Assembly: GCA_965645245.1 (NCBI GenBank)
Contig: OZ287079.1
Span: 1 to 64,000, forward strand
From: Massalongia carnosa
Lineage: Eukaryota
Direction of reading: 5' to 3'
DNA: 64,000 bases
Shown here: one piece after another, positions 34,801 through 56,566 of the stretch
Numbering within the stretch: position 1 is the stretch's first letter
Layout of the letters: every line of letters starts with the position of its first letter
Made by a program: the position numbers and the translations under genes
Notes under the pieces: model-generated
The model's database searches: none
What the model saw: only the letters and a program-made list of their open reading frames with translations
Told to the model about the DNA's origin: nothing

Positions 34801-35556
34801 GCGTTCAGTAAAGGGCCTCCTGGCCAATCCTCGAAAAACTTCACTGAGGTATGTACTCCCACTGTTTTCGTATCAGGATTATGCACCTTATACTGTCTTG
34901 ATGACCGGAATCCAACGAGAATTCCCTGATGGGATACCTTATCCATATTCGCACGAGTTTCGCTAGGAACGTGCACGTGTACGAGGCATCCATAGGTCCT
35001 TATATGGCCTACCTCTAGCTTCTTCTGGTGCCACATCTCATATGGGGTCTTCATATCAAACCGCTTCGACGGAAGCCGATTCTTCAGATAATTGGCAGTC
35101 AGTACTGCGTCCCCCCAAAATGACCTAGGCAACCCAGACCACATCTGCATCGCTGATACCATCTGCATCAGCGTTCTATTGAGTCTTTCTGCAACCCCAT
35201 TCTGCTCAGGGGTATAGGCCGTGGTAAACTCCACCACTATTCCTTCCGGCAATATCGTTCTAGTCAGTTTTTCATACTCCAAAGCGTTATCACATCGCAA
35301 GGTCCTGATTCGCTCCCCTGTCTCGATCTCGGCACGATTTTTGAACATCCGAAAGAGCTTTTCTAGCTCGCTCCTGGCCCCGAGGTAAACATCCGAGTAG
35401 CCGGTGGCTTCGTCGGTGAAGGACACAAAATACTTGGTCCCCTGGTTATTGGGCACCCGATATGGACCCCAAAAGTCTGAATAGACTCGTTCCAGACGGC
35501 GGGTAGCCCGTTCTGGTGGGTTTCGGTTGATTATTCGAGTCATTTTCGTCTGAGTA

Positions 35557-36905: not shown

Positions 36906-39900
36906 TACATGTGATGCATTTGCATTCCTTCTCATGGTCATGTAACTTGGCTCCCACTCCATTAGTGGCTTCATGGAGGACAGTGAGTCTGTATGCTCCC
37001 ACGTGCCCCATGCGGCCATGCCATAGTAGGTATCGGTCTCTTTCTAATTGGGACCGAGTGCTAATTGCTTTTTTGTTGTCTTTTGCATTTTCTGGCATTC
37101 TTGGCAAATTCTGATTTCCGGACGATCTTTCGCTGATATTTGGATCAGAAGTAATAGGGATTTCTTCCTCGGGATCCTCAGTGGCTATCAGGGCCACTCC
37201 GCTTCCTGCGGATCGGAGCAGGTACGTTTTTCCCACCAAAAACCCGGTGGCGAGGCAGGTACCTCTCCTCAAAATTTCGACGCAACTCAATCCAAACCTC
37301 ACAATCATTCCTCTAGCTTGTAATGCCGAAATTGACAACAAATTCGCATCCAGCTCAGGTACGTATAACACTTCTGTGAGTTTGAACTTCTTATCCTCCA
37401 GCTCCACAGCCACATCACCTTTACCAGGTGATTTAATCTTTACCCCATTAGCTATCGTCACCCAACTTACCTGCAGTGTAAAGTTTGTGAATAGCTTCCG
37501 ATTGGCCGTCATATGGCGACTGGCCCTTGAGTCAATAATCCACTCATTCGGGGGTATTACTTTGGAAGTGAGTTTTGCCACTCTAGCAAAACTCTTAGGG
37601 GAGGAGCACTTCTGGGAAGTGCGATAGCGCGCCCCATTGTTGACGTAGTCGGTGTAATCCTCATGGTCGCTCTGGTCCACGTGGTCAATGGCCATGCGAC
37701 CGTACACTGACTCGTCGTCGCTATCCTCACTGTCGCTGTCCCTTGTGCCGGATGCTTTGCGTGCAAGGTGACCTCCTCGGCCCTTGCCACGTCTGCCATC
37801 CCTTAACTTTTCCTCTCCCTTACCTCCGTCCTTGGCTTTCTTGCCCTTTGATTGGGCCGTGCTGGCGGTATCTTCATTGTAGGCCTTGCCTTCGTCACTG
37901 GCAAGCCATTCAAAACACTTGGTTTTCACGTGACCAGGTTTCTTGCAGTGGTAACATTTCCCCTTAAACTTATAGGGCTTGGCGGAGACCTTATTAGCGA
38001 TTTCATAGGGGGTCCCCGCGTTATCTCTGGCCATCTGCTCGATTTCCTTATATTTTTCAATCACCTTCCGAAACGTGAGGTTTTCCAAGTCGTTTAATTG
38101 CAATTTCACCGCATTATACCGCTCGTGATCCACCGAATCCATTAGGACTAGGGCCATCATGATATTGGATGGCTTCACCTCTGGGTTGATGTTTGCGATG
38201 ATATCCCTCATATCTTCTAGCTCTGCTGCAGTCTCATCCACTCCTTCCTCTGCCTTGGCCTTATACGTATGAAATCGGCGGAGCATGGGGACCAAGCGTG
38301 TTCTGGAGTCTTTGCCGTGAATTTCCTTTTGGGCATCCCATACCCCTTTGGCAGATTGCTGCAGTTGCACATGCTTCTGCTGCCTTTCATCCATGGCTCC
38401 CATGAGGATGGTGATTGCTGTGGCGTCATCAAAGATCCACGAGTCTCTATCCAAAGGCATGCTTCCTGGTGGTTCGAGTATCTCTCCACTGACTACTTTC
38501 CAGAGCCCTTTGGCAATTAAGTGCACCTTCAAAAGGTGGGACCACAGCCTGTAGTTGTCGCTAGTAAGTTTTGGCAGTTTTACTTCACCTTTCACACCGG
38601 CACCCCTTTTATATCCCCCATCAATGGCTGTCATAGCCGCTAGGCCCTTGTCCTTTGATGAGGAGGCCTTGCTAGCCTCGGGGGTGGTGGATGCCCTCAT
38701 GGCACCTCCGGTATCTTGGCTGTCTTCTGAGGCAGACATTTTGGTGGTGAAGGAGTCGTCCTATTCGAGTGCCGAAATGGATAGCTAGGAGTTCAAACAA
38801 GCACACGGGCTATATCCCCTAAGATAAAAGATCTAGTGATAAAATACTCCTGGATTTGAATAGAGTGCTATCCGGGCTCATAACCTGTTGAACAAAAAAT
38901 CAATCAGGCATACGGCAGCGGGATGCAGGAGAAGAGGGTCTAGGGCTTTCAAGGATAGGCAAAGAGAAGTGCTTGGCAAACGTGATGCAGGTACTCCGTA
39001 TTTCCAGTGAAGATACTCCAAATTTAGCTATCTGCTGCACTGAATTCTGAACGACTGAATAGCTAAATTACATGAGGAATCATCGTCTCTTTATACTGCT
39101 TGAGGGCCTCCATCTCGGCCTATATCAAATTCATGAACCTGCTTCCTTTGAACCTTTTCAGCTGGGCAAAATATACCTTATTGCTGACCGGAGACACCGA
39201 GACACTCAGTGATCATGAACAGCTGAATTGCCTCCGAAATGTAGCATCATTGCTGCATAACTTTGCCTCCTCGTAGTTGCCGAAGTCGTGCCGATATCTG
39301 AAGCTTTTCGCATATAGCATATGATTGCCTAATCTGGAAATTAGTAAGCAGGAGGCAAAAGAACCTCGGTCGCAAATATTCAGGTATCTCGGCAAATTCC
39401 AATAGCTTTCATACCAATTTAGGCCTCGAATACAACAGCTATTTTGAACGATACGCTCAGGATCATGATCCTTTCAATGAAATGGGTGAACCCAAGCACA
39501 CATTAAGTCAGGCTATGCAGCATTTCCAAAACACGGTGACCAACCCAAGCAAGTCCAACGATAAGGCCGTAATCGCAATGGCAGCTGTTTCAAACGTGGA
39601 GCTCAACCTGGAACAGCCCATTCTCGAATCATCACCAAGACCATCAAGTATTGCAACCATTGCGGAAAGGACTATCACGTAGAGAGCGAGTGTCGTGAAA
39701 AATATCCACACCTCGTTAACCAAGACTCACGGCGTAAGTCCAATAAGCGTCGCAGGAGTTCCAAAAGTCAAGGTCAAAGTCAAAAGCCAACCGGAAACAA
39801 TGACTCAACTAAAGGAGCCTTCTGCGCCTACATGGCCACCGCGGATATAACCAAAATATCTAAGCTCTGGATCTGTGACTCTGGAACTAGCCAACATATT

Positions 39901-42900
39901 ACCCACGATCGCTCCATATTCACCTCATTCAAGACATCCGATTGCCCACCAATTCAAGGCATTGGAGGAGTATTAATTCCCAAAGGAATAGGTAACATCA
40001 TGTTGCTGTGTGCCGGTAACAAGGGTCTTCGGGAGTTCCCTCTTTTCGATGTGTTATACGTTCCGGACGGAGGCCTAAACCTCATTTCCCAAGGACAATT
40101 ACAACGAGATGGATGTCCCCTGAAGATCGTACCAGAGGGAATTGAAATCGGGAACTATGGTATCACTGCTCGCCGCCAGGACAACAATCTGTATATCCTG
40201 AACATGTGGAACGTCTCTGAAGCCGCTCTCGCTCTCGCTGCAATTAATAGCGAGGCGATAAAAATGTAGCACGCTCGTTTAGGCCATCTTGGAAATCAAA
40301 ACATTCTCAAGCTCGCTGGCATGTCAAAAGGAATGGACCTCACCAAGCCCCCGCCCCAAGACGCCTGTCCACCGTGCGCCATCGCTCGGTCCCAAGTAGA
40401 ACCACACCGGGCCCCCATCCAACTAGGCAAGCACCCGCTGGACTTAACTCACAGCGATGTCTAGGACCTTTCCCAGAAGCCTTGAATGGCGCCAAATATT
40501 TGGTGACTTTTCTTTGCGATTTCGATAAACGGTCTCACGTCACTTTTACTGCGCGTCAAAAGCGGAGTCCTTCAAGGCTTTAAAAACTACAAGAAGCAAA
40601 ACGAATATGTGGACAAACGAGTTAAGCGCTTGCGATCGGACTGCCGGGGGTGAGTATGACTCCAAAGACTTCGAGAATTTCATAAACGAGCATGGCATTC
40701 AGTGGGAGCCTACCGTACCGGGAAATCCACTCATGAACGGGACAGCCGAGCGCCTAGGTCAAACGCTTCACAAGTTAGCCAGCACCATGCGAGAAGGCGC
40801 TAAACTCGACATCAAATATTGGGCTGAAATGATTCTCACCGCCAACTACCTACGAAATCGACGACCGACTGCGGGACGCTCCATCACCCCCTATGAGTCT
40901 CACACCGGCAGCCTACCAGAACTAGGACATCTAACGATAGATAATAGGATAGACTGGCTATGCGCAAAATCGCAAGCCCTCCACCGGATGGAAGAAATTT
41001 CAGGAACGAACCACCAAATGTACTGTAGTAGGATACGAAGGCGATCACATCTATCGAATGATAAATCCACGGGGCGCGGTCATGCGTTATTCCAATGTTC
41101 AGTGGATAGATAACAATCCCCCAACTCCTCCTTCCTTATCATTCTCTCAAACTAAAAGAGCCCTACATGTTGGACAGTCAGGACCGCCCACGAGAGAGCA
41201 AAAAAATTACCCATCATACGGACGCCCCTCATACGGACTTAGTCGACGCTCATGAATCCATAGAATCAATTCCCACTGGACCTCTCCCACCAAACGCTAG
41301 ACAAGAGGCATTGGCAAACCAACGGCCCATCGAGCCTCGGTCCCAGGCAGATATCCTCTCTAAGCACTCAGAACTTCGTGCCCCCTCGCCTGACCCACTA
41401 GCTTTTTGGCCCTTCTTGCTAGAGCCAATGACCCGGAGCCATACGAGCCTAAATCCTATAAACAGGCCGTAGACAGTCGGTAGGAAAAAGATTGGCGAAG
41501 GGCAATGCAGGAAGAAATCGACTCTATCAACGAAAATAATACCTGGATCCTCACCTCCCTGCCCTCGGACCGCAAAGCCCTGCGAGGCAAATGGGTTTAT
41601 AAAATCAAACGAGGCCCGGCTGGCGAGATTCTTCGTTACAAGGCTCGATGGGTGGTCAGAGGCTTTGAGCAACGTGAAAGCATTAACTACAATGAGACTT
41701 TTGCTTCAGTAGTGAAGCCAATGAGCTATAAAGCCATCTTCGCTATCGCTGCAGCTAATGACTGGGAATTCACCAAATGGACGTAAAATAAGCCTTCTTG
41801 TAGGGAAGGGTGGACGAGGAAATCTACGTGGAGCAACCAACCGGTCTGGATGACGGGTCAACGAGAGTTTGCAAGTTGAAGAAAGCTCTTTATGGCCTGA
41901 AACAGTCGTCTAGAATCTCGTATGAAACGATCACTATTTTTTTCAAGTCTCATGCACGACTTCGTTCGAGTCAATGCCGACCTTAGCGTTTTTGTTAAAG
42001 AAGGGGTTATCGTAGCCATTTATGTCGATGATTTAATCATCACTGGCCCTTCTTCTTCCAAGATACAACGTGTCAAGAAACTGCTGAGCGACGAGTTCTC
42101 GATGTTTAATTTAGGCCCTATCAATTACTACCTGGGCATGACGATAACTCGGGATCGGGCCAACAGGATTCTTCGCCTTGGTCAGTAGGCCTATCTGGAA
42201 AAAGTAATACGCGACCATGGCATGTGGGACACTTAGCCCGTGGCTACCCCGATGGATGGGCGACTGGAGGCTGCACCAGAGGGCCATCAGGGCTCAGATG
42301 ACTCTCGCCTCCGCTACCAATCAGCGGTGGGCTCTCTTATGTATGCTATGCTAGGCACCAGGCCTGACTTAGCCTACATCGTACCGGTGGTCAGCTGCCA
42401 TGCCTCGAACCCGACCGACACGCACTGGAAGGCAGTCAAACGCATCTTTCGATACATCAAGGGCACTCTTCCGTTGCAGTTAACATACAAAGGTCGCCTA
42501 CAACCCTTGAACTGTTACACTGACGCGGATTGGGCCGGAGATCATCATACCCGAAGGTCTACTACCTCTGGCTTCGTGTTTAATGTTGGTAGTGGCGCTA
42601 TTAGCTTGTCTTCCAAACGACAACCGACCGTAGCCCTATCTTCATGCGAAGTCGAGTACATGGGTCAGACCCAAGCCACCAAAGAAGCCGCCTGGTTGTC
42701 TAGTCTTCTCGACCAACTCTCAACACCTCAAGTCCTTGGGAATAACTATATCCAAACCCAGAGCACCTCTGTAGCCCTTGCCTACTTGCCTATATCTTTC
42801 GCCCTAAACGCTATCATCATTCACTGCGACAATCAAGGAGCAATGGCTTTGGCCAGAAATCCCCAGGCACACGCGCGGAGCAAGCATATCGACATCCAAT

Positions 42901-43699
42901 GGCACTACCAAAGAGAGAAGATCGAAGACAAATCAGTGGAATTTCGCTATGTTCCTACCGAAGAGCAGGTAGCTGTCGGCCTAATCAAGGCCCTACCAAA
43001 CGATAAATTTGTTGTCTTTCGAAGGGCTTTAGGCTTAAAGTAAAAGCAGAAGCCCTTTGTCGTAAAAATCCGAACTTAACCCCCGAAAAAAAGTATCACC
43101 CACAGCTGAGCCTGCGGGGGTGTTTTCGTACATCACCAGCAGCATTAGCCTGCGGAGTACACTGACTCACCTGCAGGTGATCCACTAGGAAGCATGATAT
43201 TATACTGGAGTATGTGGGAGTTATTGAATTTCTCTTTATCATGTGGGAGAGCTATTTCAGTGCCTGAGTGGGAGTGTTAGAATGTACAAATCAGGCTACT
43301 TCATTTCAGCCGCACTCACCTTCTACCGCACGAGTATGGCGCACGCTAACTAATGGCTAGACGTATCGCTAGTCTAATACTAGGATACCGTACATTGTCT
43401 ATAAATCTAGCTATTCCCACTATATAGAACAAAAGCAAGCGTTCTATCCTCTATTGACTATATATTACTATACTGCCTTTTGATAACATCAGGTTCTGAA
43501 CATCAGACGGCCCATTTCCGAAATGCTACTTATGCTACTTTCGGGTTGAAAGATGCAGATATGTCAAGGGACTGTGAACTAAGCTGAGGAGAAGATAATT
43601 AACCTCGACTATGATTTCCCTTACTGTGGCGGGCTTTATCACGATATGAAGATCAGCCGGTCATGAATGACAACAGGCTTGCAGCGTTCAATGAATACG

Positions 43700-43865
43700 A
43701 AGTCATCCTGAGAATGATCGAGGATGCTAAATTGGTAGATCTGGAGGCACAAGATCAGCACTGGCGGACAGCGTAAATTTGGGCAGCAGAACTAGGCTAC
43801 GAGAAGGTTGTGGAGATGTTGCTGGACAAGGGCGCGGAGGTGAATGCTCAAGGGAGAGGGTTTGA
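43700..43865 (+). pseudogene. Ankyrin-repeat gene remnant
   Basis: DLEAQDQHWRTA*IWAAELGYEKVVEMLLDKGAEVNAQG. Confidence 0.6.
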
Positions 43866-44113
43866 CGACTTCCTACTATTTGGAACAGTTAGAGCGCACC
43901 GCTTAGGCCTCTCTGCTAACGCGGGCGAGTGTAAAACCTAGGGGTAGTCGCGTGCGTCAGCGAGCTCGATCATTCTGTCATTCACGTTCTAAACTTTCAG
44001 CTTTGGACAAAATAAAAAGTAGTATTCTTACACTGCCTTGTTCATCAACCGCTCAGAAGATCAGGATAGGTTTCAAGGGTAATAGGATTTAGTTCTGAAT
44101 TATATGAATCGCT

Positions 44114-46968
44114 TTAAGACTCCAATGATAAACTCTCCATCTGCCACTCATTGAGATACTTAAGCGAAGACTCTGTATGAGAATGTTGAGGACCCAGCTT
44201 GTGTTTTTGGAGCTGAAAACATTCCTTTAGCAGTGAGAGAGCCTCATCATTGCGGCCTTGAGACTTCCACGTGAATGCAAGGTTGCTCATGCTAGTCAGC
44301 GTGGAAGGATGCTCCGCCCCTAGCACCCTCTTTCTCGTCTCCATCACTTGCACCTCCAGTTCTTCGGCCTCCGTCAATCGTCCTTGATCCGTGTACGTCG
44401 ACGCAAGATTGGCCATGCTGATCAGCGTGTCTAGATGCTCCGCCCCTAGCACCCTCGCACTCGTCTCCATCACTTGCACCTCCAGCTCTTCGGCCTCCGT
44501 CCATCGTCCTTGATTCCTGTACGTCGACGCAAGATTGGCCATGCTAGTCAGCGTGTCTGGATGCTCCGCCCCTAGCACCCTCGCGCTCGTCTCCATCACT
44601 TGCACCTCCAGCTCTTCGGCCTCCGTCCATCGTCCTTGATTCCTGTACGTCGACGCAAGATTGGCCATGCTGATCAGCGTGTCTGGATGCTCCGCCCCTA
44701 GCACCCTCACACTCGTCTCCATCACTTGCACCTCCAGCTCTTCGGCCTCCTTCCATCGTCCTTGATTCCTGTACGTCGACGCAAGATTGGCCATGCTAGT
44801 CAGCGTGTCTGGATGCTCCGCCCCTAGCACCCTCGCGCTCGTCTCCATCACTTGCACCTCCAGCTCTTCGGCCTCCGTCCATCGTCCTTGATTCCTGTAC
44901 GTCGACGCAAGATTGGCCATGCTGATCAGCGTGTCTGGATGCTCCGCCCCTAGCACCCTCACACTCGTCTCCATCACTTGCACCTCCAGCTCTTCGGCCT
45001 CCGTCCATCGTCCTTGATTCCTGTACGTCGACGCAAGATTGGCCATGCTGATCAGCGTGGAAGAATGCTCCGCCCCTAGCACCCTCGCACTCGTCTTCAT
45101 CACTTGCACCTGCAGCTCTTCGGCCTTCGTCCATCGTCCTTGTCCCTTGTATGCCAAGGCTAGCATAGCCATACTATTCAATGTCTCTTCATCCTCTGGA
45201 CCAAGCACTTTTTGCCTGATTCTTTTTGCTTTTAGGGCCATTGTCGCTGCTTCAGCGTAACTCCCTTTCGCCCACGCATACCATGCAGCGTGATATAGTA
45301 TCAAGGCCCAGTCTTGTAATGAGCTTTCGACAGCTGGCTCCTGCGCTACTGCCGACTTTGCGTGAGGAAAAAGCGCTTGACACTTTGTCCAATTCTCGTA
45401 ATTTCCCGTCGGAAATACTGTACAGAGATTCTTGATGTATTGCTGCTTCCATCTTTCGAGCTGATTGGATGCTTCTAGCCACTTTCTGATCGCTAGCTGC
45501 ACTAGCCCGTGCATCTCAAAGGTGGTTTCATCTATGCTGATGGTGATGAACGAGAAGTTTCTCAAGACAAGTATGTCGTCTTCAAACTCGTCGACGCTGG
45601 AATCGGATACGGTATCCTTATTGCTATCGTCTTCGTGGTCATCATCTTCGTCATTTCCAGCATTTTCTCCCGTATTTTCATTTCCTGCCTCGTTTTGTGT
45701 CTTGAGTAAAGCCTCAGGAATTCCCTGTCGATCGAAAAAGCTCATAAGCGACAGCAGATTAGCTGCCGAAGGCTTGATCTGATGAATATGATCAAACGAT
45801 ATTTGCCAGGTTATAATGATTGAATTTTTAGCATCCAGGTCCCTGCGAAGATGTCCCGCTTCGTGATTCAACAGACTGGTCTTTCTTTTATCATTTTTAT
45901 AGAACTCTTTTATGTATTGTCGAACAGAATATCTTGGTACTCTTTGTCGAATGTATGCGGCCGCTTGAACGATGGCAAGCGGCATGAATTCGAGTGCTGC
46001 TGCTAGCTCAGCAGTATCATCTCTGTCCATCTGTTCTCCCAGCTTCTTTTCAAGGAGCGCTAGCGCATGTGTATCGTCCATCGGCTCAACTGGTATTATG
46101 TCTCTTTCTTCTGCTAGCCGCAATGCCACGCTTTTAGTCCGGGAGGTGATGAGAATCGAGCCGTTTCGACTCTGAGGTAGATATGCTAACAGTGATTGCG
46201 TGAGCCCGCTTCTAATGCCGCCATCCTGCGCCTTCTGGCCTGTAGCATGAGTTTCGAAAAGCACAGTAGCTTCGTCGGCATTGTCGAGGACCAGAGCCCA
46301 CTTTCCGTTCTTTTCGTCGCGTAACCACTTGTCAACTAGCCGGAATATGTCCGCCTTTGGGTCCTCCCTGCCAGGAATCTTGACTTGCTCTGCAACATCC
46401 CGATAACCTTGCTCGATACGGGCTGCATTACTAGCGTGTATCCAGAACACCCACGTCGTCGGCAACTGCTCTCTGATTCGATAGCAGTACTCGATGGCAA
46501 GCTGCGACTTTCTTTGCGAAAGTAAGCTATTAGAACTAGCCTGAGGCCCTTTGGCTTACCCAACGCCGCCTAGGCCGACAAGCGCTACCCTTGATGCTGG
46601 CGCGGAGCACTTTTCGTGGATCTGATCAAGTAGCGTTCCGCGATCGACGAAATCAGGGTCGCGGGGGAAACGAACAGCAGATGATGGGCTTGGTGGGGTA
46701 TCGGGTCTTTCTACAAACGCAGAATGCTATCAGCCTTGGCTCACAGGACGCTATATTATTGTGAATGGCGACTTGCCTGGATATTGAACAATATTGTTTG
46801 TCTGAGAGCCTAATCAGGATTTAGCATAAGATCAATATCGATATGAACAGGACGCAAACCAATCACTTTCGCATAGCCTGAGACGTCACCGATCACAGCG
46901 CCTTGGTTGCCAGAAATCGTGCCGAAATCCTTCGTGCCTGTAGAGACTACTGGCGTGTTACCGGCCAT
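44114..46968 (-). CDS. Fungal NLR: short N-terminal motif, NB-ARC domain, about eight TPRs
   Basis: ATG 46968; introns 46810-46859, 46711-46776 (GC-AG) and 46512-46559 give MAGNTP...FPRDPDFVDR...GLGGVGKS (Walker A), then LVLDNAD, PLAIVQAA, MHGLV and TPRs; no lesion seen. Confidence 0.9.
44290..45150 (-). repeat. Near-identical 126-bp TPR-coding tandem repeats
   Basis: 42-aa unit HPDTL(I/T)SMANLASTYRNQGRW(T/K)EAEELEVQVMETS(A/V)RVLGAE. Confidence 0.95.
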
Positions 46969-47298
46969 TGCTGCGTCGGAAGATTGTAGACATTAGAGCT
47001 CGGAGCTATATTGAATAAGACTTGAAAACCATTACCTTTACCGTGCTCAGGACCGCACCTAGGCTCGGCCGGAAACTCGACGCCCAAGACTTTCTAAAAG
47101 CACTGTTCATCTCTAAGTATAAATATAGGCACGGACTCGCCGATGGAGGGCCCCCCGCCATCATGCGGGATAGATGGCTGATAGAGCCAAGGCTATGCAC
47201 GTGCTGAAGCGCCTGGTCTCTCCATGCAGGCGGTATCACAATTATCTCGCATAAGTCATAGTGCTAAATTTGAAGCACGACCCCTCTGTAGTATTGCG

Positions 47299-48580
47299 AT
47301 GACAACGCCAGCATGGCCGAACCGTACGGATTAGGCGACCCTCTTTGATTCTCCAGACGCGAATATAGAGTACGCACCAGATGTCATTTCTCGTCCGGGT
47401 TGCTTTGTATTGACCAAACAGTATTGTCTTCGTCCACGGGCTCGGCGGCGACAGAGTGAAAACTTGGACATGGGAGGGTCGAGATAGATCGCTGTTGTGG
47501 CCGCAAGATCTCTTACCTCAAGCCTGCCCAACAGCTCGCATCCTTCTTTTGGGTACAATGCGGACTTTGCTCACTTCTATCCGTTTGTTGGACCGAAATT
47601 CATCCCGGAGCATTTGACTATTGATGATCACGCGACTGCAATGTTTCAGAGCCTAATCGGTCTCCGCGAGAAAACCAAAACTGTAGGAATCGGCACACCC
47701 CTACCCTTTCCACCAGAAATATGCTAATAGGATGTCTATGTCCAGGCTCAACGGCCGATTATTTTCGTCTCGCACAGCCTAGGGGGTCTCGTGTGCGCCA
47801 ATGCGTTGTCAAGGCACAATGGTACCGACATTGCTAGCACTACCCTCGTAGAGAGAACGATTGGAGTCGTCTTCCTTGGAACGCCCTTTGAGGGATCGTC
47901 AAAAGCAAAATGGGGAAGCAGGGCTCTACAGATACTGGGCTGGATAAGCACCACGCATAAGCAGGATATAAAGGATCTTGAAGAGCGTTCGGCAAAGCTC
48001 ATCAGCGTTAACGAGGCCTTTCAGAAATTCCTGAAAGCACGGGATCGTTCAGAATCAAGAGAGTTTGTGGAAGTAGCTTGTTTCTTTGAACAGTATGTAT
48101 GCTATGTATGAGGGAGGGACGAAGATGGGATTTATCGTGCCCAAGGAATCGGCTTGCCTACCTGGTATCGATCCACAGTCGATCCAGGCGAATCATGTTG
48201 ATATGTGCAAGTTTGAGGATGAAGACCGAGAGGGATACAAGAGAATTTCACAAAAGTTGGTTCAATGGATATCGGATCTTGATAGTCGATCCAAGGGGTC
48301 TGGAGAGGATCGCCAGGTCTGACATCTCTTTCGCGTGCTTGAAGTTAGCTGTAAATCAACAGAACCATTCGGTTCGTATAGGCGATGTTAACTTTAGGGG
48401 CAAAATCGATAATAATCGAGGTGTGATTATGGGTCATGCAAATAGTACGGCCACAGAAGGGGTTAAAATATCTGCGAGTAGTATCACTGTAAGGATCACC
48501 TATCCTTTCGATAGCGATGTACAAGCTGACAGAAAATAAAGAATAGTTATCATGGCATTAACCCAAAAGACTCTGTGTAG
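47299..48580 (+). pseudogene. SesB-like alpha/beta-hydrolase with C-terminal candidate prion-forming domain; disrupted
   Basis: DIVFVHGLGG, WPQDLLP, RPIIFVSHSLGG, FLGTPF, IVPKESA, ANHVDMCKF; lesions: TAG 47332-47334, 1-nt frameshift near 47545, 4-bp duplication near 48094-48101; four predicted introns. Confidence 0.82.
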
Positions 48581-49219
48581 ACCGAGGGATAGGCAATCAT
48601 TGCGGAGTCATTCTAGGAAACTATTCAGGGACATGAAATAATCAATTGACTTTTTGACGTCTTTCAAAACAAAGTTTTTTTGCGCAGTCATCAGCTTCGG
48701 GTGAAAGTTGACTCCTTGTGAGACGTGAAGAGCTCGCATGACAAGAGTTCCAGGCTTCAAATATGCCGCAGCTAGAGGGGGCCTCTTAGCAGAGAATGCT
48801 TATCCAACTTATGTCCGATCTCTGAATCCTGCCCTTGCTTCCGTAAGCACTTCAGAACAAAAGTCTAACAAGATCTCAAATCATTATTAAATGAATAAGC
48901 ATCTTACTTCATTGAGCTATGTAGATGCAATAATGGAGATTTTCAAAGACGTACAATCAGTGCTTACGCCTGTCAAGCCTTTAATAAAGTACGCTAAAAT
49001 TGTAAAGCGACTGAGCATCACAATCGACGACATAGCTGAAGATGAGACGAGCAATTACAATACATCAAATCCTGACATCTATTCCTATCATTTTCATTAT
49101 GTCAGGTTAGTACGTTGACATTATTGAGATTTGTTTCGACATTTCAAAGCCTTTAAGCAAGGACTAAGGTTGACAGAAAAACCTTCACTGATCTAAGTGA
49201 TAATTGACTTGCGATTCAC

Positions 49220-49499
49220 AGAGATGAAGTGCAAGCGACATCAAAAGAAGATCATGATCAAGCATTGCAGCTGCTGCTGAAGAAAAGAGCCGATAAGAAC
49301 GCTCGAGGTGGAGCCATTGACGATGCAACTGCAGACGGCGTCATTTAATGATCATGATCGAGTGATGCAGATATCGCTCGACAAAGAGGCTAATCTCAAC
49401 GCACAAAGTGAAGGCTGTGACTACACATTGTGGACGGCATCAGCGAAAGGTCATGATAAGGAGATGCAAATGTTATTTGCCGCTGGTGCAATAGGGTAG
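49220..49499 (+). pseudogene. Ankyrin-repeat gene remnant
   Basis: LQTASFNDHDRVMQISLDKEANLNAQ...LWTASAKGHDKEMQMLFAAGA; degenerate. Confidence 0.6.
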
Positions 49500-51549: not shown

Positions 51550-54500
51550 TCAGTCATGACACTGACATCGAGGAATGAGACAAGGGATTATGTGAGGCCC
51601 TATGGCATGAGGGTAAGCTTCATGAAATTCATCGATTGCTTGCTGACAATTGGTTAGCAGGTTAAAAGGTTCCCATGTCATAGGATGTCCTTCCCAATTC
51701 ACAAGATATTTGAGGAGCGGTGGTTGATAACGTCGATCCGTCTTTGAGTTGAGATTACTGTTGACATACCACTCGCGTTGACCGTCTGTACCGACTATAG
51801 GGTTTCGAGGTTCGTGAAGTTGGCCAGGAAGAGGATCTTCTGCATCGTGCTGCAGAAGGTTGACATGAAAAACGGGATGAACTTGTAGCGTGTCGGGCAG
51901 TTCAAGCTGAACGATAAGAGGATTGGAAAATACTTTGGTGACCCTATAGGGGCCGGCGTGTCGATCATTCAGTTTGGCTGCCGGTCGGGCTGTCTGAATG
52001 TTTCGAGTATTTAACCATACCATATCATCCACGAGATAGCGGGGGCACGGCGACGATTCTCGTTAGCGGTGGCTTCGTAGGAGGCTTGTGCGATTAACAT
52101 TTCGTCATGAAGATGAGCATCTACATCCTTCATCTTATCCACGAACTGATTAGTGGCAACTAGGTTGGCTCTTCCTTGAGCGGTCAGATCATGGGGTAGA
52201 GGTTCTTCGGGCTCGAATCCTACTCGAGGATGTTGTCCGTGATTGGCTAGGAAGGGAGAAGCGAGGATACTGGAGGAGTCGGTGTTGTTGCTAGCGAATT
52301 CAGCACCTGGTAAGTACTGAGCCCAGTCGTCTTGCATATAATTGACATAGGCTCGAAGATAGTGCTCCATGGTCGCATTAGCCCTTTCGGTTTGGCCGTC
52401 GGTTTCAGGGTGAAAGCTGGTTGATAACCTAGCATCAATCTTAAGACGTTTACACATGAGTTCCCAGAAGTCGGAGGTGAACTGAGTGCCTCGATCGGAA
52501 GTCAAGGCGTCGGGGAGTCCGTGTAATTTCCACACGTTCTGATAGAAGGAGCTGGCAGCTTCTTCTGCCTCCATGGAGGTGGTAGGGACAAAGTGTCGCA
52601 TCTTGGAGAGACGGTCGATGAAGACCAGAACATATCGATAGGTGACACCCATGAAGGTACTAGGAGGCAGTGGTCCTACATAGTCCATAGAGACATCACG
52701 CCATCGACGTTCAGGCGGGGATAGAGGGCGCAGCCAGCCTTGATATCGTTGATGGGACGGTTTGGGTCGCTTACAGGTGTGACAGTTGCGAATGAATCTT
52801 TTTACGGTTTGATGCATATTGGGCCACCAGTACGATCGACTCATCAACTCATAACACTTGGAGCGGCCAGGATGACCACCCGCTACACTGTCGTGGGAAT
52901 GCTGGATGAGACGAAGTCTCAGGCGATCTGACTTGGGTACGTACTTGCGATCGCGAAAATAAAGAACTCCATCTCTATTCTCACACTCGGCTAGCTGAAT
53001 TTTAGGATGATGACGGACGTTGTCATGGAGTGCGTCTAGGATTTTTGATGCGAATTGATCTCGAAGTTGAGCCTGTTCCCATAACAGTTGAGTGGGGACA
53101 TCTAGAGGGTCTTGATCGGGATCGACTTGATCGGTAGGTTGATCCAACTGGGGTTCGTCAGCTCGGTCGGGTTCGATGAACTCGGGATCGGGTTCAATGA
53201 ACTCGGGGTCGGGTTCGATGAACGTAGGGGCTAGCATTATGGTGGAGAGGAAGCTTGCTGCAACTTTATCATCTAGGTTGTGAGTTTTCAGTATGGTTTG
53301 ATGCTGGTATTTTTGTCTTTCGTCGGTTTCATCCCCCTCTTTAGGGAGATCTCCTGATCGACGAGTTAATGCATCTGGCTTTCCTCCAGCTTTTCCGGGT
53401 CGATAGACTATTTTAAAGTCAAAACGAGACAAGAATTCAGACCAACGGGCCTGTCTGCGACTGAGCTGCTTGGTGGAAGCGAAGTATTCCAAGTTTTTAT
53501 GGTCTGAAATTACGCTAATGGGAAAAGCAGAGCCTTCCAACTCGGGTCTCCATTCTTCAAAGCAACGGACGATAGCCATTAACTCTTTGTCGTAGATCTC
53601 GTAGTTGCATTCGGCCGGATTGTGTTTTTTGGAGAAGTAGGCGATGGGGCGCAGCACGTTTTCATCATCATATTGCGAGAGAATACCAGCGGAGACATAA
53701 TCGGAAGCGTCAGTTTCGACGATGATGGGTTTGTCAGGGTCGAAATGCAGAAGCACTTTTTCGGAGGTAAAAGCCTTTTTGAGAGTATTGAAAGCTTGCT
53801 GACATCGATCAGTCCAGTTGAACTCGACTTCCTTCTTGGTTAGATTCGTTAGTGGACCGGCTATATTACTGAAGCCATAGATGAATCTTCTATAGAAGTT
53901 AGCGAATCCCAAAAAGCTTTGAACATCCTTCATGTTGATCGGGGTTGGCCAGTTGGTTACGGTTTCGACTTTGGCAGGATCCATTCTGATACCCTCGGTG
54001 GTTACGATTAATCCTAGATATGCAACTTCTTTAACATGGAATTTGGATTTGGTGATGTCGCATTGTAGCCCGTTTTCTATCAATTTGTTGAGAACTCTTC
54101 TGACATGGATCTCGTGTTCGCCTTCGATTTCACTATAGATAAAGATATCATCGAGATAGGCTGTACAGAAATCGTCAAGAAATTCTCGAAGAATGTCGTT
54201 GATGAAATGTTGAAAAGAGGCGGGTCCGTTGCACAGACCGAAAGGCAAGACCAGGGATTCGAATAGGCCGAAACGAGTTCGAAAGGCTGTGAGTTCCTCA
54301 TCCCCCTCTTTGATTCGAAGGCGATTAAAGGCTGCAATGATATCTAACTTGGTGAATATCTTGGCCCTGGCTAATCGATGCAGGGTTTCAGCAATCAGGG
54401 GAAGTGGATATCGATTTTTTACGGTGACTGCATTGAGACCTCGATAGTCCACGCAAAAGCGAAGTCCTCCTCCCGGCTTTTTTACGAACATAACCGGGGA

Positions 54501-55793
54501 CGCGGCGGGCGATTTGCTCGCTCGAATGAAACCTTTAGCCAGGTTCTCATCCAGATAGCGACGAAGTTCTTGAATCTCATCACGGCTCATGCCGTAAAGA
54601 GCTTGATTGGGTGCCGGAAAGCCTTCTTTTAGCTTGATGGCATGGTCATAGGGTCGATGATCGGCTAAGACGTCAGAGTCTTTTTTGGAAAAGGCGTGCA
54701 ATAGGTCGTGGTATTGCTTGGGAAGCAGGAGGGCTGGATCGACGTTTTTCTGCTTGCGATATTCGTCTAATTCTTGGGCGGTCACTGATGTCTGCAGTGT
54801 CAGGGCTTGGTTCATGCGAAACAGGGCTAGATGAAGTTCCTTTTCACTAGGACTGTGACGCGGGTTGGGTTGATAGGTTGGTTTCGGTTTATTCAGACTG
54901 CTATGGCGACTGAATTCGGTTGCGGATTGGATTTCGGTTTTGGGTTCGGTTGGGGTCACTCCGAGGAAGCGATCGATTTCTTTCAAGGAGAGGCTAAACA
55001 TCTCGTGGTTTTCTTTGCGTCCGAGACAATTGAAGTTCATGGCGCTTATCTCGCAGATTTCCATGACTGAGGGTTTGATTTTTTGCTGAGCGGCGCGTCT
55101 TTCGACCGAAGTTCGTTTGGAGGAGGGGCTTCGGTATCGAATTTTTGGTGAGTTGCCTTGTTCAATCGCTTTTTCAATGCGACTGACGTCTTTCATCTCC
55201 TCCTTCACGGAGGTCTCCTGGCCGACGTTTTCGGGCGTGATTGTGATTGTTGAGGTTTCAATTGAGGTTTCAATTGAGGCTGGATTTATTTCCTCGGATT
55301 TCCACACCTCCTGACTTTCAGCAGGCGAAAGAAATTCTTCCTCAGTATGAGCTTGTACTGTGACCGGACGAGGAGAGCAGTGAGCGAGGCAGAAAGGAGA
55401 CGCCAATGATAGAGAGTTGGTGTTGAAATCGATATGGGCTTGATGCCGACGCAGCCACGGGTGTCCGAGAACAATGGGGTATGTTCTCAATCCAGTTACG
55501 AAGAGAAACATTTTTTTCGTGTGTCCGTTTAGATCCATGATTACTTCGGCCGCATGAGTGATGTTTCCAGTCAGGGCCGGTTGACCGTCAAAACCTTCGA
55601 GGCGTCGAGCGTATTTCAGAGGATGAAGAGGGATTTGATTAGTTTGCGCGAATTTCTTGTCAATGAATGCATAGCCGGATGCACCACAGTCAATCAAACT
55701 AAGAGTTTGAATTCGAGATCTACCGAGACGTAAAGTACATGAAACCACTAAGTGGCTATCTCTAAACGCCTCTTCAGACTCAAATTGCTCCAA
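51550..55793 (-). pseudogene. Ty3 Pol with frameshift near 52030 before the GPY/F and chromodomain
   Basis: LIDCGAS, YLDD, TDASD, HHCC, integrase; WYVNS...YLVNWEGH..TWEP in a second frame. Confidence 0.9.
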
Positions 55794-56566
55794 AGCGGTT
55801 GCTGCAGAAAAGCGAGTGTTTGATCGGAGGGGGGGAGAAAAAGAATTGGCTAGCAGACAAGAAGAAATGAGAAATGGTTCCTGCGCGCGACGATGCGCAG
55901 GACCTAGGCTTTTTTCGAGTCTTCGAGCTCGGAAATGGAGGTCGTATCTGATGAGCGAAGACTGGTTTTCTTATTAGGACAGTCGATGGCTGTCTTCCCC
56001 GGGTGTTTTTGCTTGCAATAATGGCAGAGATTCCATTTATCACAGATATCCCTCACCCCTTCCGTTTTCAGAGATTTACCTTTGACGGCTGCCATAGCCT
56101 GGCTCAGGTCCATGGGATCTCCGATAGAAGAAGTTGGGACTGGTGCGGAAGGGATATCCGGTATGCGAGCAAGGGGTGCGGCGAGAGTGATGGTCGCGTT
56201 ATCCTTTCGCTGAGACGAGGTGGTTGTGGATGTCGGGATAGTCCTGTTGTTGGGAGCCAGGTGTTTGATCTGGCGAATTTTCCGATCGGTATTCAACCAC
56301 ATTGCGACATGTTGATCGAAGGTGACTGGTTCCAGGTTGGTTCCGGGGACTCGATAGTGGACGGCGGCGGCTTGAATGACATAATTGATGTTGGACTTCA
56401 TGGCATCAATTAGAGAAGCATCCTCCATTTGGAGCGATCCTTTTTCTGGGCGAATAGGTTATAGTACTCTTCGAAACTCAGAGTACCATGTTTAAGGGTT
56501 TCGCGAAGATACTTGCGAGCATCTTCCTGCTCGAAGGGGTTACCGCAAGCCTTACGAAGAGCGGTA

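What the first reader, a model, noticed from the sequence alone, without database searches (positions are those of the whole stretch)
44114..48580. NLR and SesB-like hydrolase, head to head, share a candidate new amyloid signalling motif
Seen: the ORF track misses three short 5' exons. Spliced, the NLR begins MAGNTPVVSTGTKDFGTISGNQGAVIGDVSGYAKVIGSQTNNIVQYP and then goes straight into NB-ARC with no effector domain. The divergent gene 330 bp away is a SesB-like hydrolase whose last exons (48363-48580) add NHSVRIGDVNFRGKIDNNRGVIMGHANSTATEGVKISASSITNSYHGINPKDSV. The two tails align as VxxGxx[DN]F(x)GxIxxNxGx[VI][IM]Gx[VA][SN]...K[VI]x[GA]SxxxN. Established: fungal NLRs activate adjacent cell-death effectors by amyloid templating through a shared NLR N-terminal / effector C-terminal motif (NWD2/HET-S HRAM, sigma with SesA/SesB, PP with HELLP/SBP). 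Inference: this is such a unit. The motif resembles PP/RHIM but lacks the central Gln of NxGxQxG, so it may be an unnamed family. I cannot exclude that it is already in published motif catalogues.
Basis: partly seen in the sequence, partly recalled or inferred. Interest (0 to 1): 0.9.

Follow-up and report, generated by a model that had tools for sequence, protein, structure and literature searches.

The report
NLR–lipase pair sharing amyloid-like motif
A fungal immune-receptor gene and its neighbour, a lipase gene that is broken in this genome, carry matching short tails of the kind fungi use to pass a cell-death signal by amyloid templating; this tail type is common on such lipases but has no name in the catalogues I could check.

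Summary
The NLR (44114-46968, minus) is intact: a roughly 45-residue N-terminal motif, then linker, NB-ARC and TPRs, with no effector domain. RNA contigs from a ~90%-identical lichen relative splice NLR introns 1 and 3 and hydrolase introns 1-3, but retain NLR intron 2.

One of them also occurs in a second organism.

The hydrolase tail is not private. 36 of 65 SesB-like homologues from many Pezizomycotina carry it at their C-terminus. A tail HMM built without the window picks the NLR's first exon as the best unrelated hit in the window (E 0.011). Profile-profile comparison gives P 1e-4. The pairwise signal is weak (p about 0.03).

Pfam's PP, sigma and HET-s profiles and the PDB sequences do not match the motif, although PP-bearing relatives of this NLR do hit the PP profile. 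The core keeps PP's N-x-G-x-x-x-G spacing, but a hydrophobic residue replaces the central Gln, and the conserved block is about twice as long as PP.

Best reading: a decayed PNT1/SBP-type amyloid-signalling pair using an unnamed, Gln-less, PP-like motif family. It is a new variant of a known kind. Amyloid behaviour is untested.

The parts
46860..46968 (-). NLR exon 1: start codon at 46968 and residues 1-36, holding most of the N-terminal motif (core N-Q-G-A-V-I-G)
   Evidence: It is the first in-frame ATG after a stop. The X1 RNA contig of a relative covers it and joins it to the downstream exons. It is the best unrelated hit of the tail HMM in the window. Orthologue P0003 starts the same way.
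46810..46859 (-). NLR intron 1 (50 nt, GT-AG)
   Evidence: It is skipped in X1 record 1, whose pieces lie at 46560-46808 and 46859-47143.
46777..46809 (-). NLR exon 2 (33 nt), the end of the motif region
   Evidence: The orthologue model P0003 has the matching 11 residues.
46711..46776 (-). NLR intron 2 (66 nt, GC-AG, donor AG|GCAAGT). It holds an in-frame TAG, so it must be removed to make the NLR.
   Evidence: It is NOT skipped in the one RNA contig that covers it. It is spliced in the NCBI model P0003.
46560..46710 (-). NLR exon 3: Pro-rich linker (ERPDTPP...) up to the first part of Walker A
   Evidence: The linker is conserved in NB-ARC homologues.
46512..46559 (-). NLR intron 3 (48 nt, GT-AG), splitting the Walker A codons
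   Evidence: It is skipped in X1 record 1.
44114..46511 (-). NLR exon 4: NB-ARC, DUF7779 and TPR_10 repeats, up to the stop codon
   Evidence: Pfam: TPR_10 E 2e-112 with 9 stretches, DUF7779, weak NB-ARC. 13,369 homologues at E<=0.001.
44277..45142 (-). Tandem array of 126-bp (42-residue) TPR units, 6.9 copies, 94% matches
46969..47312 (.). 344-bp divergent intergenic region. RNA of the relative reaches 47143 from the NLR side. From the hydrolase side it starts 79 nt of mRNA upstream of the 47422 exon junction, which I reckon as about 47291.
47313..47369 (+). Hydrolase exon 1, with frameshift 1: two C missing from a C run at about 47338-47342, giving a TGA at 47346
   Evidence: Other copies have CC put in behind 47338 (X3 69.2 of 69.2; X5 12,490 of 109,378).
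47370..47421 (+). Hydrolase intron 1 (52 nt)
   Evidence: The X1 record 2 loose end ...AATATAGA joins directly to 47422.
47422..47682 (+). Hydrolase exon 2, with frameshift 2: one T missing at about 47544 (ARIL|SFGY)
   Evidence: Other copies have T put in behind 47543 (X1 all; X2 403.7 of 2,982.6; X5 11,121 of 107,396). The T is absent in organism B (X3 0 of 62.2).
47683..47745 (+). Hydrolase intron 2 (63 nt)
   Evidence: It is skipped in X1 record 2 (47683 to 47750, with 3 letters between).
47746..48316 (+). Hydrolase exon 3: GxSxG nucleophile elbow (HSLGG) and the rest of the alpha/beta-hydrolase domain. Frameshift 3 is a 4-bp TATG duplication at 48094-48101.
   Evidence: Pfam, (DUF676, Hydrolase_4, weak). 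Homologues are 73-89% identical.. Four letters are left out at 48093 in X1 (all), X2 (2,371.7 of 5,227), X3 (67 of 89.1) and X5 (34,846 of 58,220).
48317..48362 (+). Hydrolase intron 3 (46 nt), in front of the tail exon
   Evidence: It is skipped in X1 record 2 (48310 to 48360, with 3 letters between). Six of 65 annotated homologues end at ...SQV, that is, they read through this donor.
48363..48488 (+). Hydrolase exon 4: 42 residues of the C-terminal tail motif (core N-R-G-V-I-M-G)
   Evidence: 72.7 bits to the HMM built from non-window tails.
48489..48541 (+). Hydrolase intron 4 (53 nt, GTAAGG...AAG), not covered by RNA
   Evidence: After splicing, the end of the tail matches P0009 and others.
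48542..48580 (+). Hydrolase exon 5: the last 12 residues and the TAG stop

Best explanation
This is a two-gene NLR/effector amyloid-signalling unit of the PNT1/SBP type, in a lichen-forming ascomycete related to Lobaria. It is caught in decay.

The receptor is intact. It is an NB-ARC/TPR NLR whose only N-terminal module is a roughly 45-residue Gly/Asn/hydrophobic motif.

The divergent neighbour is a SesB-like alpha/beta-hydrolase (putative lipase). Behind a disordered linker, its C-terminus carries a roughly 45-residue tail of the same motif type.

Inferred mechanism, by analogy with NWD2/HET-S and with PNT1/HELLP/SBP:
1. Ligand binding by the TPRs oligomerises the NLR.
2. The clustered N-terminal motifs fold into a cross-beta nucleus.
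3. That nucleus templates the homologous tail of the lipase and so relocates or activates it.

The motif belongs to a widespread and strongly conserved tail family of SesB-like proteins. This family keeps the PP/RHIM spacing N-x-G-phi-X-phi-G-x-x-x-G/S but has Val or Ile where PP has its central Gln. It extends on both sides to about 45 residues. The PP, sigma and HET-s profiles do not recognise it.

In this genome the adjacent lipase copy is dead (three frameshifts). If the NLR still signals, it must do so to a paralogous copy elsewhere.

Shown: gene structures, splicing in a relative, the frameshifts, how widespread the tail family is, and the profile results. Inferred: homology of the two motifs, amyloid folding, templating and the outcome.
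For: Gene models and an intact NLR.

RNA of a relative puts the motif exon on the NLR transcript and the tail exon on the hydrolase transcript. The orthologous NLR in Lobaria immixta has the same N-terminus and exon structure.

The hydrolase is SesB-like: 65 homologues, several of them named SesB or SesB-related by their sources.

The tail family:
- 36 of 65 homologues are hit at E<1e-3. Three of these were not used to build the HMM and score 42-50 bits.
- In 31 of the 36 the match ends within 18 residues of the C-terminus.
- One Gly is invariant, and the second Gly and the Asn are nearly so.

The link between the two sides:
- The tail HMM built without the window scores NLR exon 1 at 12.2 bits (E 0.011 among 1,546 sequences). 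The next unrelated ORF scores 4.7 bits.
- Among 67 N-termini of NB-ARC homologues the best score is 5.5 bits, so the one NLR that sits next to a tail-bearing gene scores highest.
- hhalign gives P 9.8e-5 over 37 columns with 41% identities.

The relation to PP:
- 20 of 48 short N-termini of the closest NB-ARC homologues have strict N-x-G-x-Q-x-G in front of the same linker.
- hhalign puts the cores in the same register (tails vs PP P 0.0054; NLR N-terminus vs PP P 0.05).
- 3 of 33 tails have Gln at the central position.

AlphaFold2 on homologue P0009 folds residues 1-289 with block-mean pLDDT mostly 80-95, apart from two low-confidence loops (about 71-90 and 151-190). The tail (290-354) stays at pLDDT 34-53 with almost no secondary structure (one short helix near the end, none over the motif), as expected of a free tail.

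Two other head-to-head SesB-like/NB-ARC pairs in metagenome contigs (L045, L069) each share their own terminal motif (0 of 5,000 shuffles reach the score). This shows that the layout goes with motif sharing.
Against: - The two sides in this window are only about 30% identical. The pairwise local score is reached by 148 of 5,000 composition-preserving shuffles. The L045 and L069 pairs are far closer. Both peptides are Gly/Asn/Val-rich, so part of the signal may be compositional.
- The effector is a pseudogene, so no working adjacent pair exists here.
- I found the NLR-side motif only in this lineage: the window, P0002 and P0003 (3 hits among 23 candidates). None of the 67 other NLR N-termini has it.
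- Co-occurrence of this particular motif at NLR N-termini and effector C-termini in other genera was not shown. Of 80 metagenome loci only L002, a 1.65-kb contig without neighbours, carries the tail. The L045 and L069 motifs are not hit by the tail HMM.
- NLR intron 2 is retained in the only RNA contig that covers it.
- No test of amyloid formation was possible.
Confidence: 0.6

Rival explanations
1. The motif is simply a divergent member of the PP/RHIM family, not a separate family. A PNT1-type NLR and an SBP-type lipase use a PP motif in which the central Gln has drifted to Val/Ile. Catalogues would file it under PP.
For: The NLR's closest relatives carry canonical PP at the same place, in front of the same linker. 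The core spacing N-x-G-x-x-x-G-x-x-x-G/S is shared and hhalign aligns it in register. Three of 33 tails keep G-V-Q-phi-G. SesB-like lipases with PP motifs next to PP NLRs are published (Daskalov 2012, passages read; Wojciechowski 2022 S5 table).
Against: Pfam's PP profile PF17046 hits 5 of 5 PP-type N-termini of this NLR's relatives. It hits none of the window peptides, the 10 tail-bearing homologues, P0003, or the 3 Gln-containing tails. My own PP HMM gives no hit to the window NLR or tail at E<=20 among 1,579 sequences. The literature describes strong conservation of the Gln-centred pseudopalindrome (Bardin 2021, passages read). The conserved block is about 45 residues, against 17-23 for PP.
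Confidence: 0.2
2. The resemblance between the NLR N-terminus and the hydrolase tail is fortuitous (shared Gly/Asn/hydrophobic composition). The NLR's motif signals to some other effector, or to none. The SesB-like tail family has partners elsewhere.
For: The pairwise score has only p about 0.03 against shuffles. The HMM score is 10-12 bits. The NLR-side motif was not found beside tail-bearing genes in any other genome. Five relatives of the NLR (P0102, P0121, P0141, P0154, P0164) carry another Gly-rich N-terminal motif that also looks somewhat like the window's, by eye only.
Against: The NLR exon is the top unrelated hit of an independently built tail HMM in 64 kb. It also scores highest among 68 NLR N-termini, and it lies 344 bp from the only tail-bearing gene in the window. 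Profile-profile P is 1e-4 over 37 columns, including the distal G-S-x-T-x-N segment. The head-to-head layout is the one seen in the motif-sharing pairs L045 and L069.
Confidence: 0.12
3. The conserved C-terminal tail of these SesB-like proteins is not an amyloid signalling motif. It is a regulatory, membrane-targeting or oligomerisation segment of the enzyme, and the NLR similarity is irrelevant.
For: The tail is unusually well conserved across classes for an amyloid signalling motif (up to about 70% identity between Dothideomycetes and the window). Partner NLRs are not documented. No amyloid data exist.
Against: AlphaFold2 leaves the tail unstructured and detached (pLDDT 34-53). It sits behind a variable low-complexity linker at the extreme C-terminus. 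It has the Gly/Asn/hydrophobic pattern of known motifs. SesB-like lipases are an established effector class for sigma and PP motifs.
Confidence: 0.08

Closest known systems
PNT1 / HELLP / SBP PP-motif cluster of Chaetomium globosum (and PNT1/HELLP of Podospora anserina)
   Same: An NB-ARC/TPR NLR with a short N-terminal motif and no effector domain. A SesB-like lipase effector (SBP) carries the related motif at its C-terminus. The genes are adjacent. The core spacing is N-x-G-phi-X-phi-G. The window NLR's nearest relatives carry canonical PP.
   Different: The central Gln, described as strongly conserved, is Val in the NLR and Ile in the tail. The conserved block is about 45 residues, not 17-23. 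Pfam's PP profile does not detect it. No HeLo-like third gene carries the motif in the 64-kb window. The lipase copy is a pseudogene. I could not read the CgSBP motif sequence (it is given only in a figure), so a direct comparison is missing.
het-eN / SesA / SesB sigma locus of Nectria haematococca
   Same: A SesB-type alpha/beta hydrolase with a C-terminal prion-like extension shared with the N-terminus of a neighbouring NLR. The extension is about 40 residues long and built of repeated sub-units.
   Different: Sigma is made of G-x-G-x-Q-F-N and G-G-T-Q-N-I-N-T units, which are rich in Gln. Neither unit is present here. Pfam NACHT_sigma gives no hit. The NLR there is NACHT/ANK.
NWD2 / HET-S (HRAM) of Podospora anserina
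   Same: The signalling logic is the same: the NLR N-terminal motif templates the C-terminal motif of the product of the adjacent gene.
   Different: That effector is a HeLo pore-former with two 21-residue repeats forming a beta-solenoid. There is no match to Pfam HET-s or to PDB HET-s/HELLF sequences.
PUASM (Wojciechowski et al. 2022)
   Same: A recently added fungal motif family, found by pairing NLR N-termini with the C-termini of neighbouring effectors.
   Different: The PUASM pattern is F-x-G-x-G-x-Q-x-x-G-x-G-x-F and it is tied only to PNP_UDP effectors. That pattern is not present here.

Membership tests
NLR/effector amyloid-signalling gene pair (NWD2/HET-S paradigm) | NLR with a short N-terminal extension in place of an effector domain | tested here: met
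   97 residues lie before the Walker A Lys. There is no Pfam domain in them.
NLR/effector amyloid-signalling gene pair (NWD2/HET-S paradigm) | Adjacent gene encodes an established effector domain with a C-terminal extension | tested here: met
   A SesB-like alpha/beta hydrolase lies 344 bp away, divergent, with a tail of about 54 residues behind a linker.
NLR/effector amyloid-signalling gene pair (NWD2/HET-S paradigm) | Sequence similarity between the NLR N-terminus and the effector C-terminus | tested here: met
   Met, but weakly: HMM E 0.011; hhalign P 9.8e-5; shuffle test 148 of 5,000.
NLR/effector amyloid-signalling gene pair (NWD2/HET-S paradigm) | Both genes intact | tested here: not met
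   The NLR is intact. The hydrolase has three frameshifts.
NLR/effector amyloid-signalling gene pair (NWD2/HET-S paradigm) | Motifs form amyloid, behave as prions and cross-seed | not testable with these tools
   This needs peptides or in vivo reporters.
PP motif (Pfam PF17046, named Ses_B) | Match to the PP profile | tested here: not met
   No hit at E<=10 for the window N-terminus, the window tail, 10 tail-bearing homologues, P0003 or 3 Gln-containing tails. Five of 5 PP-type relatives hit with E 5.7e-7 to 7.2e-4. That PF17046 is the PP profile comes from passages of PMC12261475. HMMER filters drop most matches above about E 0.1.
PP motif (Pfam PF17046, named Ses_B) | Pseudopalindrome centred on a conserved Gln (G-phi-Q-phi-G) | tested here: not met
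   The NLR has G-A-V-I-G and the tail has G-V-I-M-G. The central residue is Val or Ile in 24 of 33 tails and Gln in 3 of 33.
PP motif (Pfam PF17046, named Ses_B) | Flanking Asn and Gly at the spacing N-x-G-x-x-x-G-x-N-x-G | tested here: inconclusive
   The Asn and three Gly/Ser positions fit, and hhalign aligns them in register (P 0.0054 and 0.05). The second Asn is absent.
PP motif (Pfam PF17046, named Ses_B) | Length about 17-23 residues | tested here: not met
   The conserved block spans about 45 columns.
sigma motif (Pfam PF17106) | Three-fold G-x-G-x-Q-F-N / G-G-T-Q-N-I-N-T units; profile match | tested here: not met
   There is no Pfam hit and the units are not present in either peptide.
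HET-s / HRAM (Pfam PF11558; PDB HET-s, HELLF) | 21-residue repeat matching the HET-s profile or solved sequences | tested here: not met
   There is no Pfam hit. The tail profile against 177,635 PDB sequences gives one chance hit at E 5.8 and no HET-s, HELLF or RHIM. HRAM1-5 sub-family profiles were not available.
PUASM and BASS1-10 | Match to the published motif profiles | not testable with these tools
   The profile files (.hmm supplements) could not be read. The PUASM text pattern is absent on inspection.
SesB-like alpha/beta hydrolase (DUF676 / Abhydrolase_6) | Homology to SesB-type lipases with the GxSxG nucleophile | tested here: met
   65 homologues up to 89% identical. Weak DUF676 and Hydrolase_4 hits. 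HSLGG is present.
NB-ARC/TPR fungal NLR | Walker A, NB-ARC, and TPR repeats with high internal identity | tested here: met

The most novel reading that the evidence does not exclude
The roughly 45-residue, Gln-less tail (pattern: phi-S-V-x-phi-G-D-V-x-Y/F ... N-N-x-G-V-V/I-M/A-G-H/N-A-x-S/G-T ... R-I-T-G-S ... Y-Y/H-G) is a distinct, so far unnamed family of fungal amyloid signalling motifs. It is the dominant C-terminal module of a pan-Pezizomycotina clade of SesB-like lipases. It would derive from PP by swapping the Gln ladder for a hydrophobic one and adding two flanking strands. This lichen-fungus NLR would be the first receptor-side instance. The family escaped pair-based catalogues because the NLR's motif lies in short 5' exons, and the tail lies in a separate 3' exon that gene models often miss.
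Probability: 0.35. Interest if true: 0.6.

Novelty: new variant of a known kind. Interest (0 to 1): 0.5.

Why it matters
Fungal NLR signalling by amyloid templating is known for a handful of motif families: HRAM, PP, sigma and PUASM.

If this tail is a true signalling motif, it adds a widespread family attached to lipase effectors in many ascomycete classes. It would also show that the Gln at the heart of the PP/RHIM core, thought to be strongly conserved, can be replaced by a hydrophobic residue. That bears on how such folds are stabilised and on how specificity between parallel pathways evolves.

It also flags a practical blind spot. Six of 65 annotated homologues stop exactly at the intron in front of the tail exon, and many NLR models lack their 5' motif exons. 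Pair-based motif surveys that use annotated proteins will therefore undercount such systems.

The pseudogenised effector beside an intact receptor is an example of turnover in these loci.

Tried and rejected
- Whole genome: none is held, so I could not look for intact paralogues or for other NLRs with the motif.
- Complex prediction (two copies of the NLR N-terminus plus the tail): no verdict.
- Metagenome scan for SesB-like loci: 80 loci, 701,599 bases, 21,434 ORFs. Only L002, a 1,653-bp contig without neighbours, carries the tail at E<=1.
- NB-ARC lies near the hydrolase in 21 of the 80 loci. In 18 it lies downstream on the same strand, which looks like the fused all-in-one NLR form; I judged this by position only. 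It is divergent in L045 and L069. In L014 it lies 4.7 kb downstream.
- L045 and L069 each share a terminal motif between NLR and hydrolase. By eye I took L045's for the same family, but neither the tail HMM nor the PP HMM hits them. They are analogues, not members.
- Tail profile against PDB sequences: nothing relevant.
- Supplements of Wojciechowski 2022. Eleven short core strings and six accessions of tail-bearing proteins gave no relevant match in the files that could be searched. Files 9 and 10 and the .fa/.hmm files could not be searched, so absence from that catalogue is not proven. In its Fig. E, the only motif primed from a SesB-type domain is PF07819_017. In the part of the S5 table that I read, its pairs overlap those of NANBNtm_023. 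I take that group for the sigma cluster, but the flattened figure text does not settle this.
- Daskalov 2016 (PMC4790977) is not held, so the CgSBP motif could not be compared.
- Earlier findings of this scan: none.
- RNA run X1 holds only a small share of the stretch and comes from a ~90%-identical relative. It says nothing about expression in the window's own organism.

Full report
**What is there**

On the minus strand an NLR gene runs from the ATG at 46968 to the stop at 44114. It has four exons:
- 46968-46860
- 46809-46777
- 46710-46560
- 46511-44114

The introns are 50 nt (GT-AG), 66 nt (GC-AG, donor AG|GCAAGT) and 48 nt (GT-AG). The spliced frame is open for 897 codons.

Pfam finds nine TPR_10 stretches, DUF7779 and a weak NB-ARC in the long exon. 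It finds nothing in the first 36 residues or in exon 3 at E<=10. The TPR region is a 126-bp tandem array of 6.9 copies with 94% matches, which is typical of fungal NLR repeat domains. They run straight into a Pro-rich linker and Walker A.

On the plus strand, 344 bp from the NLR's ATG, a SesB-like alpha/beta-hydrolase gene starts at 47313 and ends at 48580. By my reading its exons are:
- 47313-47369
- 47422-47682
- 47746-48316
- 48363-48488
- 48542-48580

After splicing, the end of the tail matches homologues such as P0009.

**Transcript evidence**

One RNA run (X1, Logan contigs of a lichen metatranscriptome) holds contigs about 90% identical to the window, so they come from a relative.
- Its 1,991-nt minus-strand contig lies on 45300-46511, 46560-46808 and 46859-47143. 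It therefore removes NLR introns 3 and 1 and carries the motif exon on the same RNA as NB-ARC. It runs through the 66-nt intron 2 without a skip.
- Its 1,020-nt plus-strand contig joins exon 1 (loose end ...AATATAGA) to 47422, skips 47683-47750 and 48310-48360, and ends inside the tail exon. So the tail exon is part of the hydrolase mRNA.

Intron 2 of the NLR holds an in-frame TAG in the window, and no ATG lies downstream before Walker A. It must therefore be spliced for the NLR to be made. The NCBI model of the Lobaria immixta orthologue (P0003, MMC22_008330, 800 aa) splices it. I count that splice as likely but not shown.

**The hydrolase is a pseudogene**

Three-frame translation and tblastn with homologues P0007 and P0009 show three frame breaks:
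- After MAEPYGLGDPL the frame hits TGA at 47346. Homologues continue in the +1 frame.
- At ARIL|SFGY (about 47544) one T is missing.
- At 48094-48101 a TATG is duplicated.

The laid contigs show the repaired state in other copies:
- CC behind 47338: X3 69.2 of 69.2; X5 12,490 of 109,378; X2 none.
- T behind 47543: X1 all; X2 403.7 of 2,982.6; X5 11,121 of 107,396; X3 none of 62.2.
- Four letters absent at 48093: X1 all; X2 2,371.7 of 5,227; X3 67 of 89.1; X5 34,846 of 58,220.

The 1-bp deletion is therefore also present in organism B, which comes from another study. A 4-bp duplication is not a homopolymer error. These are real mutations, not assembly noise.

The mixed depths in X2 and X5 suggest further copies or strains that are intact at some sites. 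ORF fragments P0004-P0006, 72-93% identical to the tail, lie on contigs other than the window's own. The catalytic HSLGG and the downstream His region are still readable, so the decay looks recent.

**The tail is a widespread family**

The hydrolase's largest exon finds 65 longer homologues at E<=0.001 among 269 candidates. They are up to 89% identical, come from Dothideomycetes, Eurotiomycetes, Sordariomycetes, Leotiomycetes and others, and several are named SesB or SesB-related by their sources.

An HMM built from 33 of their C-termini (window excluded) hits 36 of the 65 at E<1e-3. Three of these were not used to build it and score 42-50 bits. In 31 of the 36 the match ends within 18 residues of the C-terminus. 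Six of the 29 proteins without a hit at E<1e-3 end at ...SQV(V), exactly where the intron in front of the tail exon begins. Those models probably lost the tail.

Conservation is high:
- one Gly in 33 of 33 tails
- the next Gly in 31 of 33
- Asn two residues before the first Gly in 26 of 33
- the residue between the two Gly is Val in 16, Ile in 8 and Gln in 3

AlphaFold2 on P0009, with a 22-sequence alignment, folds residues 1-289 with block-mean pLDDT mostly 80-95, apart from two low-confidence loops (about 71-90 and 151-190). It leaves 290-354 at pLDDT 34-53 with almost no secondary structure: one short helix near the end and none over the motif. The tail is thus a free appendage, not part of the enzyme fold, as far as a shallow alignment can tell.

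**Is the NLR N-terminus related to the tail?**

The tail HMM, built without any window sequence, was run with filters off against 1,546 sequences: all six-frame ORFs of at least 25 residues in the window plus eight extras.
- After the tail itself and its close copies, the best hit is the ORF holding NLR exon 1 (12.2 bits, E 0.011). The spliced NLR scores 11.5 bits (E 0.018), aligned over residues 8-42.
- The next unrelated ORF scores 4.7 bits.
- The same HMM run on 67 N-termini of NB-ARC homologues gives at most 5.5 bits.
- hhalign of three NLR N-termini (window, P0003, P0002) against the 33 tails gives P 9.8e-5, 37 aligned columns and 41% identities. The alignment includes the distal G-S-x-T-x-N segment and needs one 4-residue gap.
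- A plain Smith-Waterman test is weaker: score 36 against 24.3 +/- 4.9 for shuffles, and 148 of 5,000 shuffles reach it.

The NLR lacks any effector domain and sits 344 bp from the only tail-bearing gene in 64 kb. Taking that with the scores, I judge the two motifs related with about 75-80% confidence.

**Which motif family?**

Pfam's three amyloid-motif profiles give no hit to the window's N-terminus, the window's tail, ten tail-bearing homologues or P0003 at E<=10. HMMER filters drop most matches above about 0.1. A 2025 paper states that PF17046, named Ses_B, is in fact the PP profile (passages of PMC12261475).

As a control, 5 of 5 PP-type N-termini from relatives of this NLR hit PF17046 (E 5.7e-7 to 7.2e-4). 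None of three tails that do contain Gln at the centre hits it.

The tail profile finds no HET-s, HELLF or RHIM chain among 177,635 PDB sequences at E<=10. Sigma's units (G-x-G-x-Q-F-N and G-G-T-Q-N-I-N-T; Daskalov 2012, passages) and PUASM's F-x-G-x-G-x-Q-x-x-G-x-G-x-F (Wojciechowski 2022, section read) are absent.

**Relation to PP**

A phmmer search of 1.84 billion representatives with the NB-ARC part of the NLR gave 13,369 hits at E<=0.001. Of the best 150:
- 71 have a recognisable Walker A.
- 48 of those have a 40-200-residue N-terminus.
- 20 of the 48 carry strict N-x-G-x-Q-x-G a few residues from the start, in front of the same ERPETPP linker as in the window.
- 6 more carry a relaxed G-x-Q-x-[GAN].
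- 2 look HRAM-like.
- None has a Gln-less N-x-G-phi-phi-phi-G.

So the window's NLR is a member of the PNT1-type clade, and its motif stands where PP normally stands. hhalign places the tail core and the NLR core on the PP core in the same register (N-x-G-x-X-x-G-x-x-x-G; P 0.0054 and 0.05).

However, a PP HMM built from the 20 strict instances gives no hit to the window NLR or the window tail at E<=20 among 1,579 sequences. Its best tail hit is the Gln-containing P0048, at 8.1 bits. The literature describes PP as a pseudopalindrome centred on a strongly conserved Gln, about 17-23 residues long. Here the centre is hydrophobic and the conserved block is about 45 residues.

I therefore file it as PP-like in its core geometry and in its evolutionary setting, but not as a member of PP as currently defined.

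**Is it in print?**

I read sections and tables of Wojciechowski 2022, its Fig. E text and part 1 of its S5 pair table. Its 16 NLR-side and 22 paired motifs include only one motif primed from a SesB-type domain, PF07819_017. In the part of S5 that I read, its pairs overlap those of NANBNtm_023. I take that group for the sigma cluster, but the flattened figure text does not settle the assignment. SesB-type effectors otherwise appear with PP-cluster motifs.

Eleven short core strings and six accessions of tail-bearing proteins gave no relevant match in the searchable supplements. Files 9 and 10 and all .fa/.hmm files could not be searched. Daskalov 2016 is not held. The CgSBP motif is shown only in a figure. 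I cannot rule out that the tail is counted somewhere under PP.

**Co-occurrence elsewhere**

This is the weak point. The NLR-side motif was found only in this lineage (3 hits among 23 candidates). Of 80 metagenome loci with SesB-like genes, only one carries the tail, and its contig is too short to show neighbours.

Two loci (L045, L069) have the same head-to-head SesB-like/NB-ARC layout. In each, the NLR N-terminus and the hydrolase C-terminus share a motif strongly (scores 66 and 76; 0 of 5,000 shuffles reach them). Those motifs are not hit by the tail HMM or the PP HMM. They show that the layout goes with motif sharing. They do not show that this family recurs.

**Surroundings**

The pair lies in a transposon-rich stretch:
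- gypsy-type elements at 24.5-29.6 kb and 52.0-56.0 kb
- copia-type pieces at 32.7-43.0 kb
- Tc1/mariner pieces at 35.7-36.9 kb and 58.7-59.2 kb

Ankyrin-repeat ORF fragments lie on both sides of the pair. No third gene with the motif, such as a HeLo-like one, is present in the window.

**Verdict**

The most likely reading (0.6) is a decaying PNT1/SBP-type amyloid-signalling pair that uses an unnamed, Gln-less, extended PP-like motif. The effector side of that motif is widespread in ascomycetes.

Amyloid formation, templating and any present-day function are inferred, not shown.

Noticed in passing
window 24551-29574, 32754-43040, 52014-55970, 58706-59206: Dense transposon content around the pair: two gypsy-type polyproteins (RVT_1, RNase H, integrase, chromo), copia-type gag/RVT_2 pieces and two Tc1/mariner DDE_3/HTH pieces.
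   Followed up: partly
window 43615-43941 and 49208-49499: Short ORF fragments that read like ankyrin repeats, interrupted by stops, on both sides of the NLR/hydrolase pair. They may be remnants of another repeat-domain gene.
   Followed up: no
window 4355-8633 and 10193-17459: An ABC transporter (ABC_tran, ABC_membrane) next to a highly reducing polyketide synthase (KS C-terminal part, AT, DH, methyltransferase, ER, KR, ACP). Probably a secondary-metabolite cluster.
   Followed up: no
window 467-1186 (-): An ORF with a clear RmuC-family match (E 2e-27), a family I know mainly from bacteria. It is odd in a fungal contig.
   Followed up: no
window 19713-21263 (+) and 21295-22764 (-): A DUF6589 ORF (E 6e-62) beside a helicase C-terminal-domain ORF. 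This may be part of a large mobile element.
   Followed up: no
L069:8650-9400 (-) and L069:10700-11500 (+); L045:700-1300 (-) and L045:2300-2696 (+): Two metagenome contigs with head-to-head NB-ARC NLR and SesB-like genes. Each pair shares its own terminal motif (0 of 5,000 shuffles reach the score), and these motifs are hit neither by my tail HMM nor by my PP HMM. They may be further unnamed motif types.
   Followed up: partly
proteins P0102, P0121, P0141, P0154, P0164 (N-termini): Five NB-ARC relatives share a non-PP N-terminal Gly-rich motif (roughly F-x-x-x-A-x-D/N-G-S-x-x-F-x-G-x-x-x-G-N-V). I did not identify it.
   Followed up: no
proteins P0010, P0013, P0020, P0022, P0023, P0038: Annotated SesB-like models that end at ...SQV(V), the read-through of the intron donor in front of the tail exon. 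The tail exon seems to be missed by gene prediction in these genomes.
   Followed up: partly
loci L032, L066, L063, L039, L056, L030, L041, L037, L080, L018, L074, L022 and others: In 18 of 80 metagenome loci an NB-ARC follows the SesB-like domain on the same strand. This is the fused all-in-one NLR form of the same effector, judged by position only.
   Followed up: no
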